DNA of 12,688 bases from Oligoflexales bacterium (GTDB lineage Bacteria > Bdellovibrionota_B > Oligoflexia > Oligoflexales > Bog-1112): NCBI GenBank assembly GCA_045105515.1, contig JBGCDR010000093.1:1-12688 (forward strand), in the 5' to 3' direction. This document shows positions 9,001 through 12,688 of the stretch, piece by piece. The position numbers are program-made. Numbering within the stretch: position 1 is the first letter of the stretch; each line of letters starts with the position of its first letter.

Positions 9001-12000
9001 ACTTTGCCCTCAATATAGAGGTTCAAAACTAAGGAACCCAAGAATCATGAAGTATTGGATTATTTTATCTCTCTTATCAGTAGGAGTCCATTTAGGATTC
9101 GGACTAAGTTTTTATGGTAATGAGAGGTCAACAAAACCTAAAACAAGAAAAGTTAAGGTCAAGATTTCCGTACAGAAACCTAAGAAGAAAGAAGTAGTCA
9201 AGGTTGAGGAAGTAAAGCCCAAGCCTAAACCCAAGCCTAAACCCAAGCCAAAGCCTAAACCGAAGGTGGTTAAGAAGAAGCCTAAACCGAAGTCCAAACC
9301 AGTAGCTCGCAAGCCTGATAAAAAACCTAAAAAAAACGCAAAGAGGGTCCAAGGTCTATCGGCTAAATCCATGGGGAAAGGCAAATCCACAGTAAGTGTG
9401 CCTTTAGGTAATACACTGATGGAAAAAGACAAGGGTCTTAGATTGAAAGCTAATCAAATCGAGGCTCTGCAGCAAGACTTAAGTGCTGATCCCAAGCTGA
9501 TCCGCAAATCGGTGAAGAAACCTATTTATACAGAAGATGCCTTAGATGCTGGGATCGAAGGAAATTTCGTGGTAGATGTTTTTGTAAATGCTAGCGGAGA
9601 AGTAGTAGAAGCAGAATTGAGTAGGAGGGTTGGTTTTGGTATGGATAAAGTCTTGATTCAAGCGGCAAAAAAAGCCAAGTTCCATCCTCGTCGAGATAAA
9701 AAAGGCAGGCCTTTGCCTGCATGGACCTTTGTTGCCTTTGCATTAGTGATTGAATAGCAATAGTAGTTGTTGGAGATACCTCCATGCGTATTGCTTAGTT
9801 GGAGTTAATGTTTCATACTCACGAATTCCAGATTGTACTTCAGCAAATATGCATTTTTAGAAATAGTAGCATCGGCATTATGATTAATGTAGGGAGGTCT
9901 GTAGTCATCATGCTCGATCCAATGAGCTCCTTCTTTTACATAGGTGTAGTAGTGGCCAAAGTTGAGGGAATCTCCTCCAAGGGTGTCGTGAACCTGTACG
10001 GCAATTGGTTTATATGTTGCGATATATTCTTCTCCACTATTTTCATCAAAAATCTTAATATTGATGGGTTCAACTTTTACAAGGCTAGAAACTCTTTTGG
10101 TTTGCATGGTTATGTAGTCGAGTTCATAGCGTTTTAATTGAATCAACAGGGTTTTTGGCGCATTGAGTAACTTGAACTGTTTACTGCCACCAACAAAATT
10201 ATTTGACGCACTGCCATTTACCCTCTCCAAATTAAAAAAGTGGTCAATTGCTTCCTGGAGAGTTTTAAAGCATGGAAAACCAAATGGTTTTATAGATAAA
10301 CTAAGGATGCTATTGTGAGTTTTGCTTGAAATCCTGACTGACTCTTCATGATCCCATTTAATGCTATCTGCTAGGGTGAATCCAGAATGGTCTTGATAGC
10401 CTATAAAAGATAAAAGGTTTTGCAGGAATTCTTCTGGGTCTTGCTGAGCTCCGGGTAGAGATTCAGGAGATTTATTGTTGCTAAGATAGTACAATTCTCG
10501 ATAGTCACGAAAAACCTTTTTGATGAGTTTAGATATCTGTTTGTAGTGTCTTTGCTTATCTTTAACATCTGAGCTTTGTCTAATCATATTAATGAGGGTA
10601 AGGAAATGATTTTTTAAACGAGTACTTTTCTTGATACGTAATGATTTCTTTACATTAAGAGAGTAGCTATCCTCTGTCAATTCTGCTTCATTATCCAAAT
10701 GAATCTTCCTGTTGATTGCTAATGAAAAATCTTGGTCAGAAGCTAGGAGTTTTATCACTCCATTGAAAAAACAAGTGTTTCCAAAGTTTTCTAGACCGAG
10801 CTGTAAACCATTCCTATTATTTTTAAGGAAAGCATGAGGCTGAAGATCGTTCTCTCTTTGATCGGAAATCCCCTCTAAATCATAAGAAAGTCCCTTTAGA
10901 CGATGTGGAGGGTGTTTTAGACCACTGGATTTTTGCATCCTGATATGCCTAGGAAAATATTCTTTAGAACTCTTATATTCTTGTGTCTTGCTAAGTTTAT
11001 AGTTATCCCATAAAGTTGATTCCACCTTTTCAAAGATGTTTTCCATCTCATCCGACTCCGAGATGGAATCGTATTCCGGATTAATTGTAGATTCGTCAGA
11101 ATCCTCTATCTGTTCCAAAATACTCTTTCTCAAGTTTGAGATTGGACTATTACTAGATATTTCCGCAGCCTTTATTGGGTAACAAGCTAATAAAGTTAAG
11201 ATCATCGTTGTTACTTGGTTTGATCTAGTAGAAGAAAGGATAATGTTTCTAAAAATTTGAATACCATTCATAAATAACCCTTTAAAAGAGTTGTGGATTC
11301 TGATCGACGTGGTGATCTTTATAATATCAAGAAATAAGTTTCCATAATTTTAATACAGTTTTACTGTTGAATTAAAATGATATCAAAATTCATGGCTTGA
11401 GATTATTTAATATTTTTACCCTTGCATATTTTAATCAATACATGCCATTCATGGATTATTGGTAGGTTTTACCAAGGAGCATAAATGATATGAATTTACT
11501 GATCTGTTTTTTCTATATTAATATATTTTTTGTATTGAACTTTTCTACTATCCGAGCTTCAGAATTTTCTTCAGATCCCTTGAGTTATTTTCGGTTTAAA
11601 AACAAAGTGTTACAAGATCGAGTCAATATAAAATCCATGGCTTTACCTCAGAGTACCGACATAATTATGGCTTATGATTTTACAAGTTCTAATGCTCAAA
11701 CAGGTATTAAATCGTTTAACGGAAAAAACCTTCACCATCTTTTTTCTAAGGAAGATGTGCGGCACAACCCATATCAGACTGTTACTAAATTACTTATTGG
11801 AAACTTGGTACCTGACGAACAAGACCGTGAATTCAAGGTTCTTGGTTTTGGAGATGAAAGGTCAATAGGAGATATAAATGGAGTTAGTTTAGTTAGTAGT
11901 GCAAAAAAACCTGCGATCGGTCTTTATGGTGTCTTAAAGGCATACCGATCTTACAGAAAAAGCTGCTATATGTCTGGACCTACTAGTTTTTCTGGTCCTA

Positions 12001-12688
12001 TAAGGATTGCATCTCAGCAAGCGATTAAAAATAGAAGGCATACCTTGCTCATTATTTTGACTGACGGAGCCCTTTCTTCCGGTATAGCGCAGCGAGAAAC
12101 CATAGAGTCTTTAGCCTCAGCAAGTAAAACTCCATTGTCGATCTTGATCATAGGTGTTGGAGATGGTACGGAAAGAGAGCGAACAGGTTTATTTCCGGGT
12201 TTACAGCGATTCAAGGAAATCAAGGCTTTGCAAGATTCTCATGATGCTTTTAGACTAAGAATCAAGAATAATTTGAAGTTTGACAATGTTAATTTTATCA
12301 ATGCCAATGATTATATTGGTGGTGTTTTTGCTGAACAAGAGCCTAAAGAAAGGCTGGAAAAATTCCTTAAATCTTGTGTAAAGAAAATTGATATACAGAA
12401 AGAGTATATGAAGCAAAATGGTTTGATTTAGATTTCTCTTATTTTAGAGAGTGCAAATATGGAAGGGGAATCGAGTGTTTAAGAGCTTTTTGCTGGTAAG
12501 TTTGCTGTCGGTTTATAGCTTTGGTGCAAGTCGTATTAAGGCTATGGAGCAGGGCTGATTCAAATAAGATTTTTTCCAATTTTTCATTAAATAGGTCAGA
12601 AAAATTCTAAGCCGCAGTACCAAAAGTGACTAGATAAAAAAAATATAGGAAGAAAAAACTTAAAAAAAATGGCTCACTTTTATTAAAA

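What a model noticed while it worked through the whole genome (the two positions that open the first line are those of the whole stretch)
9805..12431. Eukaryote-like ubiquitin/SUMO toolkit whose members carry Sec signal peptides or lipoboxes
Besides the RBR ligases the genome holds 6 USP-type deubiquitinases (g01571 C93:9805-11271; g04216 C292:3069-4553; g04774 C355:3521-7036; g05434 C425:9368-10489; g05556 C436:2294-3421; g05730 C451:2019-2960), 2 Ulp1/SENP-like C48 peptidases (g00388 C33:5949-7217; g03912 C258:11175-11891), 4 RING-finger genes (g01634, g05375, g00021, g04323), 2 F-box genes (g05183, g03792) and 7 copine-domain genes; the USP g01571 and the RGLG-like copine g01572 are divergent neighbours on C93. 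Unlike type III/IV effectors these proteins start with Sec signal peptides, several with a lipobox: 34 of 52 eukaryote-like proteins are positive by a hydropathy rule against 1719 of 5565 others. Export would run throu [...]
Evidence so far: pfam.tsv rows and coordinates. Among 189,784 bacterial species genomes: UCH 783, Peptidase_C48 272, Copine 256, zf-C3HC4_3 159, zf-RING_2 449; UCH in 10 and zf-RING_2 in 9 of the 15 other Bog-1112 genomes. Rule and N-termini in call 44; Fisher odds ratio 4.2, p 4.5e-7. T2SS genes in call 94.
(Added by a program. Inside this text positions count along the whole contig: contig position 1 is position 1 of the stretch shown here. "Call 12" and the like, gene names such as g00115 and contig names such as C1 are that model's own, and its searches are not shown. 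The text may have been shortened before it was handed on; [...] marks where a part breaks off. The agent that wrote the report below was given it as the finding of a first reader that could run no searches.)

Follow-up and report, generated by a model that had tools for sequence, protein, structure and literature searches.

The report
Exported bacterial deubiquitinase with copine partner
An uncultured relative of predatory bacteria carries an intact ubiquitin-cutting enzyme and a plant-like binding protein side by side, both with export signals, which suggests that it manipulates a eukaryotic host through ordinary secretion rather than an injection machine.

Summary
Window 9805-11271 (-) encodes a 488-aa USP-family protease. 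Its Cys box, QQD box and His box are intact and the modelled fold is a canonical USP. Window 11490-12431 (+) encodes a 313-aa copine-type vWA protein with an intact MIDAS motif, closest by sequence to the plant RGLG1 vWA domain.

Both begin with hydrophobic N-termini followed by AxA-like sites, and their orthologues keep these features. The Cys of the USP "lipobox" is not conserved, so a cleaved Sec signal fits better than a lipoprotein.

USP and copine orthologues occur on contigs of identical length in three other assemblies, so the pair is probably linked. The same-genus genome lacks it.

- **Genome counts:** I re-found 6 USP, 2 C48, 7 IBR matches, 6 RING matches and 7 copine matches.
- **Enrichment:** with my own gene calls and rule, 13-17 of 22 toolkit genes are signal-positive against 21-37% of the proteome (odds ratio 4.3-5.9). 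Paralogues are not independent.
- **Distribution:** USPs are found in 12 of 15 other genomes of the family and 1 of 79 elsewhere in the order.
- **Secretion:** a T2SS operon is present.

The export route and the ubiquitin target are inferred. Precedents exist: T2SS-secreted TssM, and Dependentiae ankyrin proteins with signal peptides. I rate it a new variant of a known kind.

The parts
9805..11271 (-). USP (peptidase C19) gene, 488 aa plus stop
   Evidence: ORF. Pfam UCH 77 bits. Three orthologues at 54-62% identity in the alignment (found).
11167..11271 (-). Codons 1-35: predicted Sec signal, with a long n-region carrying R8 and R16, an h-region, and IKA followed by AE
   Evidence: Rule-positive. 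The start M-N-G/S-I and an A/S-x-A-like site are kept in the orthologues, while Cys30 is not. Coordinates. Cleavage is inferred.
10810..11166 (-). Codons 36-154: acidic, Ser-rich linker, predicted disordered, ending in a conserved KLKHPP..L.GL..D motif
   Evidence: pLDDT is below 50 for residues 58-130. Composition is 22 D+E and 18 S in 119 aa. Invariant columns K119-D131.
9808..10809 (-). Codons 155-488: USP catalytic domain. N162 and C167 (codon 10771-10773), Q276/D278, H440 (9952-9954), D455/D456 (9904-9909)
   Evidence: Invariant or nearly invariant columns in 45 sequences. pLDDT is mostly above 90. Foldseek top hits are USP12/46/21/7/30 at E about 1e-19, probability 1.00. Coordinates.
11272..11489 (.). 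218-nt AT-rich divergent intergenic region, presumably holding both promoters
   Evidence: Sequence. The promoter-like scan of 9700-12688 found no more sites than shuffles did, 7 against 10.7 +/- 3.2, so no promoter is assigned.
11490..12431 (+). Copine-type vWA gene, 313 aa plus stop
   Evidence: ORF. Pfam Copine 87.6 bits. In one search, three orthologues at 56-65% identity, one more distant at 40%, and a 194-aa fragment at 63% over 58% of the query. Profile against PDB: RGLG1 vWA at 2.2e-29.
11490..11558 (+). Codons 1-23: predicted Sec signal (h-region, then IRA followed by SE)
   Evidence: Rule-positive. The first rule gave only 'hydrophobic'. S24 and F26 are invariant, and a hydrophobic N-terminus is present in all 5 aligned sequences.
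11676..12065 (+). MIDAS residues D63, T65, S67, T165 and D192 of the vWA fold
   Evidence: Invariant in 5 of 5 aligned sequences. Coordinates. The assignment to MIDAS rests on established vWA knowledge, which I recalled.

Best explanation
The window carries a two-gene accessory module of an uncultured Oligoflexales (Bdellovibrionota) bacterium. One gene is a catalytically competent USP-type deubiquitinase. The other is a copine/RGLG-type vWA protein.

Both are made with N-terminal Sec signals and so leave the cytoplasm. This much is shown: the domains, the catalytic and MIDAS residues, the fold, the hydrophobic N-termini and their conservation.

The most likely onward route is the genome's type II secretion system, or exposure on the cell surface or in vesicles. 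The USP would then remove ubiquitin, or a ubiquitin-like tag, from proteins of a eukaryotic host or from the bacterium's own surface. The vWA protein would bind a host target through its metal site. All of these steps are inferred.

The module is one piece of a family-wide arsenal of ubiquitin-system look-alikes that nearly all carry export signals.
For: **USP identity.**
- Pfam UCH is far above its cut-off.
- The Cys box, QQD box and His box are conserved in 4 of 4 orthologues.
- G439, H440 and D456 are invariant, and N162, C167, Q276 and D278 nearly invariant, in 45 sequences.
- The AF2 model has pLDDT above 90 over most of residues 155-488. It matches solved USP-ubiquitin complexes across about 360-380 alignment columns.

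**Export signals.**
- The N-termini of both proteins pass my rule. Nine of nine cytoplasm-type proteins of the same window fail it.
- The signal-like segment persists in the orthologues although its sequence drifts.
- All 6 USP paralogues are positive.
- Of the relatives' USP frames with a bounded 5' end, 11 of 16 are positive by rule and 13 of 16 by eye.
- Enrichment over the proteome has an odds ratio of 4.3-5.9. The internal-segment control gives only 2.6-9.8%.
- The mature USP and the mature copine have only 2 Cys each.

**Secretion route.**
- One operon holds GspC(x2), D(x2), E, F, G, J and K.
- GspC is found in 16 of 16 family genomes.
- There is only one FHIPEP gene, which I read as flagellar rather than a second, injectisome-type copy, and no TssC.

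**Host target.**
- No ubiquitin gene was found in the genome. That search had no positive control.
- USPs occur in 12 of 15 other family genomes against 1 of 79 in the other families of the order.

**Pairing.** The copine and USP orthologues have matching longest-contig lengths of 30948, 87005 and 8221.

**Precedent.** TssM is a USP-type effector reported to use T2SS (PMC10719079, passages read).
Against: - No dedicated signal-peptide predictor was available. My rule also calls the TonB membrane anchor positive and 21-37% of all genes positive. A membrane-anchored or periplasmic location is therefore not excluded.
- Paralogues share ancestry, so the Fisher p-values overstate the enrichment.
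- T2SS is probably common in the order, so its presence permits the route rather than pointing to it. T2SS substrates have no sequence signature.
- No host is known, and no activity or expression data exist.
- The same-genus genome G012 (94% complete) has no DNA match to 9700-12688. Its best USP match to this protein is 31% identical. Its syntenic contig ends 174 nt after tonB. The module is therefore accessory or was not assembled there.
- The copine family is patchy: 2 of 15 other family genomes.
- G000 is a 461-contig MAG of 6.29 Mb with 4.8% contamination.
Confidence: 0.6

Rival explanations
1. The hydrophobic N-termini are uncleaved signal anchors or periplasmic signals. On this reading the USP-fold protease and the vWA protein work in the bacterial envelope on non-ubiquitin substrates, for example trimming Gly-Gly-ended peptides or prey or self proteins, with no eukaryotic target.
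For: The rule cannot separate anchors from cleaved signals, since TonB is also positive. The USP signal has an unusually long n-region of about 19 aa. The phylum is known for predation on bacteria (established knowledge). The proteome-wide positive rate is high, at 21-37%.
Against: The ubiquitin-tail-binding boxes of canonical USPs are kept, and the fold matches ubiquitin-bound USPs over the whole domain. The co-occurring RING, IBR, C48 and ankyrin domains make sense only against a eukaryotic ubiquitin system. A conserved small-x-small site follows the h-region in the orthologues.
Confidence: 0.17
2. The proteins are effectors delivered by another route: outer-membrane vesicles, cell lysis, or a type IV or contractile system. 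The N-terminal hydrophobic stretch would then serve to insert them into host membranes.
For: OMV release of signal-bearing effectors was proposed for Chromulinavorax (PMC6561590, passages read). USP C292 and the copine on C451 have further hydrophobic segments after the signal.
Against: No TssC was found, and only one FHIPEP gene. A signal at the extreme N-terminus followed by an AxA-like site is the Sec pattern.
Confidence: 0.15
3. The genes are eukaryotic contamination or decaying relics with no function.
For: The MAG has 4.8% contamination. Several copine paralogues are broken. GC falls to 0.33-0.36 over the two genes.
Against: The genes share a contig with bacterial L19, RNase HII and tonB, and that contig is syntenic with a same-genus genome. 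Both frames are intact, with no introns. Their gene GC lies at the 19th-21st percentile of the genome's own genes. The orthologues keep all catalytic and MIDAS residues. The USP sits in a well-supported clade of bacterial and metagenomic sequences, apart from the eukaryotic rows.
Confidence: 0.03

Closest known systems
TssM of Burkholderia (USP-type deubiquitinase effector)
   Same: A bacterial USP-fold deubiquitinase with a Cys/His/Asp triad. It is reported as a type II secretion substrate rather than an injected effector, and has a hydrophobic N-terminal region (PMC10719079, passages read). It removes ubiquitin from the bacterial surface (LPS), according to the search listing of PMC10371091 and passages of the review PMC13720258.
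   Different: TssM lacks the Fingers subdomain and has a 'Littlefinger' loop and an Ig-like N-domain (same paper). The model here has beta-strands at 298-393, where I would place the Fingers of canonical USPs, and it aligns with full canonical USPs. It has an acidic disordered linker instead of an Ig domain. The phylum is different, and here there are six paralogues and a copine partner. I made no direct structural comparison with TssM.
SnUSP1-3 of Simkania negevensis
   Same: The review PMC13720258 (passages read) calls them 'more conventional USP enzymes' of an intracellular bacterium. Like them, this USP looks canonical.
   Different: Simkania belongs to the Chlamydiota. I did not see their N-termini or secretion route. 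No sequence comparison was made here.
Signal-peptide-bearing ankyrin proteins of Chromulinavorax destructans (Dependentiae)
   Same: These are eukaryote-like host-manipulation proteins exported through Sec. In that genome 44% of CDS and 78% of ankyrin proteins carry signal peptides (PMC6561590, passages read). A Babeliales USP (P0012) among my hits also starts with a signal-like N-terminus.
   Different: The paper describes ankyrin repeats, not ubiquitin-system enzymes. The genome is 1.2 Mb and belongs to an obligate parasite of another phylum.
Ubiquitin-system look-alikes of Amoebophilus asiaticus
   Same: A symbiont genome with two predicted USPs and 26 proteins predicted to act on host ubiquitin (PMC8831229, passages read).
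   Different: It is a Bacteroidota symbiont. Delivery is thought to involve a contractile T6SS-iv, and that paper does not report signal peptides on these proteins (0 occurrences of the term).
Plant RGLG1/2/5 vWA (copine) domain
   Same: Best solved relatives of the copine, at E 2.2e-29 to 1.5e-24. The DxTxS..T..D metal site is kept.
   Different: RGLG proteins are RING E3 ligases. This protein has no RING and no C2 domains, and it has an N-terminal export signal.

Membership tests
USP / peptidase C19 (Pfam UCH PF00443) | Profile match over the curated cut-off along the whole domain | tested here: met
   77 bits against 23.9, covering profile positions 2-254 of 254.
USP / peptidase C19 (Pfam UCH PF00443) | Cys box with the catalytic Cys and the oxyanion Asn five residues before it | tested here: met
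   N162 and C167 lie in the motif ..ENFGNTCFFN.., identical in 4 of 4 orthologues and nearly invariant in 45 sequences.
USP / peptidase C19 (Pfam UCH PF00443) | His box with the catalytic His, followed by the [D/N]-D pair | tested here: met
   H440 and D456 are invariant in 45 sequences. Position 455 is D, or N in two orthologues. That either D or N is acceptable at this position is recalled knowledge.
USP / peptidase C19 (Pfam UCH PF00443) | Thumb-palm-fingers fold | tested here: met
   AF2 pLDDT is above 90 over most of residues 155-488. Foldseek gives probability 1.00 to USP12/46/21/2/7/30, with target TM-scores of 0.57-0.77.
USP / peptidase C19 (Pfam UCH PF00443) | Hydrolysis of ubiquitin conjugates | not testable with these tools
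   Needs an enzyme assay.
Sec (SPase I) signal peptide | n-region, h-region and c-region with small residues at -3 and -1 | tested here: inconclusive
   Both proteins are positive by my hydropathy and cleavage rule, and the pattern is kept in the orthologues. The rule also accepts the TonB anchor, and no trained predictor was at hand.
Bacterial lipoprotein (lipobox) | Conserved Cys at +1 of an L-x-[AGS]-C box | tested here: not met
   The USP has LLAC with Cys30, but none of the 3 orthologues has a Cys at that column. The lipobox pattern itself was recalled. Several paralogues and relatives do end the h-region in S/A-C.
Type II secretion substrate | A T2SS is present in the genome | tested here: met
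   GspC, C, D, D, E, F, G, J and K, plus two further open frames between gspG and gspJ (one with an N-terminal methylation motif), lie on C36. GspC is found in 16 of 16 family genomes.
Type II secretion substrate | Secretion that depends on the T2SS | not testable with these tools
   No sequence motif defines T2SS substrates (established knowledge).
TssM-like fingerless USP | No Fingers subdomain, a Littlefinger loop, and an Ig-like N-domain | tested here: not met
   The model has strands over 298-393 and aligns over about 360-380 columns with full USPs. The N-terminal part is disordered, not Ig-like. TssM is not among the best 60 profile matches in the PDB. No direct superposition was done.
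Copine (PF07002) / RGLG-type vWA | Profile match and an intact MIDAS site | tested here: met
   87.6 bits against 27. D63, T65, S67, T165 and D192 are invariant. RGLG1 vWA matches at 2.2e-29.
Copine proper (C2-C2-vWA) | Two N-terminal C2 domains | tested here: not met
   Pfam finds only Copine, at residues 89-309, and the N-terminus is a signal.
RGLG E3 ligase | C-terminal RING domain | tested here: not met
   No RING by Pfam. The protein ends 4 residues after the Copine match.

The most novel reading that the evidence does not exclude
The Oligoflexales family that holds this genome is an undescribed lineage of Bdellovibrionota that attacks or inhabits eukaryotic cells and lives exposed to host cytosol. 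It edits host ubiquitin with enzymes sent out by the general secretory pathway, not by injection. These include lipoprotein-type USPs that would strip ubiquitin from the bacterium's own surface. The conserved USP-copine pair would be a two-part module in which the RGLG-like vWA protein selects the host target for the deubiquitinase.
Probability: 0.3. Interest if true: 0.8.

Novelty: new variant of a known kind. Interest (0 to 1): 0.55.

Why it matters
A 2026 review counts only TssM and three Simkania enzymes as bacterial USPs (PMC13720258, passages read). Here a whole bacterial family, in a phylum known for preying on bacteria, carries one to six USPs per genome in most of its genomes, and most of them have export signals.

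If the reading is right, three things follow:
- It widens the known range of bacteria that tamper with eukaryotic ubiquitin.
- It supports general secretion, via T2SS or surface lipoproteins, as a recurrent alternative to injection systems for such effectors.
- It points to a eukaryote-directed lifestyle in Oligoflexales.

The linked copine/vWA protein is a candidate targeting partner with no described counterpart. It also gives DUB biochemists a set of compact, canonical, low-cysteine bacterial USPs to test.

Tried and rejected
- **Complex prediction, USP 115-488 with copine 25-313.** No verdict (score 0.00). This is not evidence either way.
- **The search for related loci with the USP alignment.** No relative was confirmed in metagenome contigs or genome contigs. 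The gene order in the three orthologue-bearing assemblies could therefore not be seen.
- **The look-up of sequencing runs.** No RNA holder is listed. The only holders are three 'plant metagenome' runs of one study, which may be the source of the DNA.
- **NCBIfam.** No family for either protein.
- **Promoter and terminator scan.** Nothing above shuffles.
- **Paper searches.** 'Bog-1112' gave 0 papers. 'Oligoflexales' with 'ubiquitin' gave 2, both irrelevant. 'Bdellovibrionota' with 'eukaryotic-like' and 'ubiquitin' gave 8, none on this. At least two of 'Oligoflexales', 'metagenome-assembled' and 'eukaryotic-like': 190 papers hold two or more; none of the 15 listed holds 'Oligoflexales' or bears on this.
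- **Earlier-scan look-ups** by words and by sequence found nothing related.
- **Lipoprotein reading of this USP.** Rejected because Cys30 is not conserved.
- **Contamination reading.** Rejected on synteny and GC.
- **Conserved adjacency in the 40%-identical G015 orthologue.** Not found. Its neighbours are two other signal-bearing proteins to which I assigned no family.
- **Ubiquitin gene search.** Empty, but the family rang in no control genome, so this is weak.
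Full report
**What is in the window.** The window is contig C93 of a 6.29-Mb, 461-contig MAG that is 90.9% complete with 4.8% contamination. Earlier notes of this scan place it in the Oligoflexales, Bdellovibrionota (I did not re-test this). Positions 1-9757 hold ordinary bacterial genes. These include a radical-SAM enzyme, ribosomal protein L19, RNase HII, thioredoxin, a GHMP kinase and ExbB/ExbD/TonB. 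Two divergent genes follow, separated by 218 nt: 9805-11271 (-), 488 aa, and 11490-12431 (+), 313 aa. GC falls from about 0.41 to 0.33-0.36 over them. Their gene GC, at the 19th-21st percentile, is still within the genome's own range.

**The USP.**
- Pfam UCH scores 77 bits against a cut-off of 23.9, over the whole profile.
- The Cys box (N162, C167), the QQD box (Q276, D278) and the His box (H440, D455/D456) are present and identical in three orthologues of 54-62% identity. They are invariant or nearly so in a 45-sequence alignment.
- An AF2 model built on that alignment has pLDDT above 90 over most of residues 155-488. Residues 58-130 are disordered.
- Foldseek returns USP12, USP46, USP21, USP2, USP7 and USP30 at E about 1e-19 and probability 1.00, over about 360-380 alignment columns. 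A profile search of PDB sequences gives USP15, USP2 and USP8 at about 1e-78.
- The enzyme looks like a complete, canonical USP, unlike the 'fingerless' TssM described in PMC10719079 (passages read). I did no direct superposition.
- The protein is rare and divergent. Among 1.84 billion cluster representatives, 345 score E<=1e-3, 7 score <=1e-10 and 4 score <=1e-30.
- I looked up 10 of the next-best hits. Four carry names: three are eukaryotic and one is a Babeliales bacterium.
- In a tree of 31 USP domains, the window's enzyme sits in a starred clade with the metagenomic orthologues and a family relative (G015), apart from the eukaryotic rows. Nine further rows were dropped because my box patterns did not find both motifs. 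Many branches are long.

**The copine.**
- Pfam Copine scores 87.6 bits against a cut-off of 27.
- A profile of five orthologues hits the plant RGLG1, RGLG2 and RGLG5 vWA domains at 2.2e-29 to 1.5e-24, and BONZAI1 at 6.8e-16.
- D63, T65, S67, T165 and D192, which form the metal-ion site of vWA domains by recalled knowledge, are invariant.
- There are no C2 domains and no RING. The protein is therefore neither a true copine nor an RGLG ligase. It is a stand-alone copine-type vWA domain.

**Export signals.**
- The USP begins with about 35 residues: a long n-region with two Arg, a hydrophobic core, and I-K-A followed by A-E.
- The copine begins with a 23-residue hydrophobic segment ending I-R-A, followed by S-E.
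- Orthologues keep the start (M-N-G/S-I in the USP), a hydrophobic core and a small-x-small site, while the sequence drifts. This is the usual behaviour of signal peptides.
- Cys30 of the USP's apparent lipobox is not conserved, so I read this one as an SPase I signal.
- No trained predictor was available, so I wrote two rules. Within the window, the stricter rule is negative for 9 of 9 cytoplasm-type proteins. It is positive for the OMP-like protein, a thioredoxin-like lipoprotein candidate, ExbB, the USP and the copine. It is also positive for TonB, which is a membrane anchor. The rule therefore shows export-type N-termini but not cleavage.

**Genome-wide check.** I re-found 6 UCH matches, 2 C48, 7 IBR matches in 6 frames, 6 zf-RING_2 matches of which 4 are over the cut-off, and 7 Copine matches in about 5-6 genes, some of them broken.

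The first rule gave a signal or lipobox call at one of the first six start codons as follows:

| Family | Positive |
|---|---|
| USP | 6 of 6 |
| C48 | 1 of 2 |
| IBR | 4 of 5 |
| RING | 4 of 5 |
| Copine | 3 of 5 |

The window's copine was labelled only 'hydrophobic' by the first rule and positive by the second.

With my own crude gene set of 5231 genes and four thresholds:

| Measure | Result across the four thresholds |
|---|---|
| Toolkit genes positive | 17, 15, 13 and 13 of 22 |
| Whole gene set (5231) positive | 36.7%, 30.4%, 25.4% and 21.0% |
| Odds ratio | 4.3-5.9 |
| p | 1.1e-4 to 8.1e-4 |
| Internal-segment control | 9.8%, 4.5%, 3.0% and 2.6% |

One 95-aa RING ORF was not in my gene set and was dropped. 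Some negatives become positive at a later start codon (C429, C188 and C416). Paralogues are not independent, so the p-values are optimistic.

**Distribution.**
- UCH is found in 12 of the 15 other genomes of the family, and in 1 of 79 genomes of the other 15 families of the order. That one genome (G088) has 8% contamination, and its three USPs have no signal.
- Of 16 relatives' USP frames with a bounded 5' end, 11 are rule-positive, 13 are positive by eye and 3 are negative. Many end the hydrophobic core in S/A-C, as lipoproteins do. Three frames cut by contig ends were left out.
- Signal-like or lipobox-like N-termini also occur on a Babeliales USP and on several metagenomic USPs.
- Copine is patchier: 2 of 15 other family genomes and 0 of 79 elsewhere in the order.

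**Is the pair a unit?** The three USP orthologues have longest-contig lengths of 30948, 87005 and 8221. The three copine orthologues have exactly the same lengths, and their identities run in parallel (61/54/53% against 65/59/56%). This points to linkage in three other assemblies, but I could not see the contigs.

- The 40%-identical USP of G015 has other signal-bearing neighbours and no copine.
- The same-genus genome G012 shares the housekeeping block (ExbB 83% identical, same gene order). Its contig stops 174 nt after tonB, and it has no DNA match to 9700-12688.
- The pair is therefore an accessory module at a break in synteny.

**Route and target.** A full T2SS operon lies on contig C36, with gspC and gspD duplicated. 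GspC is present in 16 of 16 family genomes. The third secretin belongs to a type IV pilus cluster. I found one FHIPEP gene, which I read as flagellar rather than a second, injectisome-type copy, and no TssC. No ubiquitin gene was found, but that search had no positive control. Both mature proteins have only two cysteines, which would suit passage through the periplasm; this is a hint only.

**Comparison with what is known.**
- PMC10719079 (passages read) states that TssM is a USP-type effector and a T2SS substrate, and discusses direction of its activity to the bacterial surface.
- The review PMC13720258 (passages read) lists TssM and SnUSP1-3 as the few bacterial USPs. It also says that bacterial RBR ligases have not yet been identified.
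- PMC6561590 (passages read) reports that 44% of Chromulinavorax CDS and 78% of its ankyrin proteins carry signal peptides.
- PMC8831229 (passages read) reports two USPs in Amoebophilus.

The principle of eukaryote-like effectors leaving by Sec is therefore in print. What I did not find in print is such an arsenal in Oligoflexales or Bdellovibrionota, or a USP-copine pair.

**Verdict.** The genes and the export-signal pattern are real. Secretion, the host target and the partnership of the two proteins remain inferences.

Noticed in passing
G000:C355:3521-7036 (-) = L075:522-4037: A 1171-aa protein with a signal-like N-terminus joins an IBR domain (residues 757-802) directly to a USP domain (828-1162). 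It is a possible ligase-deubiquitinase fusion.
   Followed up: partly
G000:C429:35027-36754, C153:1345-3204, C56:4804-7179, C434:3027-4217: Several RING/IBR proteins have export-type N-termini. C429 has zf-RING_5 plus two IBR stretches, an RBR-like layout. C153, C56 and C434 join ankyrin repeats to an IBR. A 2026 review says bacterial RBR ligases have not yet been identified (PMC13720258, passage read). I did not check the RING2 catalytic Cys.
   Followed up: partly
G000:C416:2924-4020, C415:46-429, C201:92-1300: Some copine paralogues are broken or odd. One C416 gene is split by a frameshift. C415 is a fragment at a contig start. The C201 gene has no signal and ends at a TAG inside the Pfam match.
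   Followed up: partly
G012:C104 (L070) against window 2600-9757: The same-genus genome keeps the housekeeping block in the same order, but its contig ends 174 nt after tonB, exactly where the USP-copine module starts here.
   Followed up: yes
G000:C36:43600-57750 (L066): The T2SS operon has tandem duplicates of gspC and gspD. Two GspC matches are found in 15 of 16 family genomes.
   Followed up: partly
window 7700-8599 (+): ExbB is 299 aa and has a signal-like N-terminus. Apart from a 92-aa fragment in G007, matches in the other genera of the family align only from about residue 90 onward, so the first 90 residues or so look like an extension specific to this genus.
   Followed up: no
G088 loci L024, L036, L042: The only USP-bearing genome outside the family (f16, 8% contamination) has three USPs without any signal-like N-terminus. 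One of them groups with the eukaryotic rows in the tree. This may be contamination or a separate acquisition.
   Followed up: partly
L015 (G015:C109) 518-1288 and 2678-3850: The 40%-identical USP orthologue is flanked by two other signal-bearing proteins to which I assigned no family (I ran no Pfam scan on them). This suggests clustering of exported genes.
   Followed up: no
proteins P0012, P0016, P0017, P0023: A Babeliales USP and three metagenomic USPs among the distant hits also start with signal-like or lipobox-like N-termini, directly before the Cys box in two of them. Sec-tagged USPs may be widespread in protist-associated bacteria.
   Followed up: no
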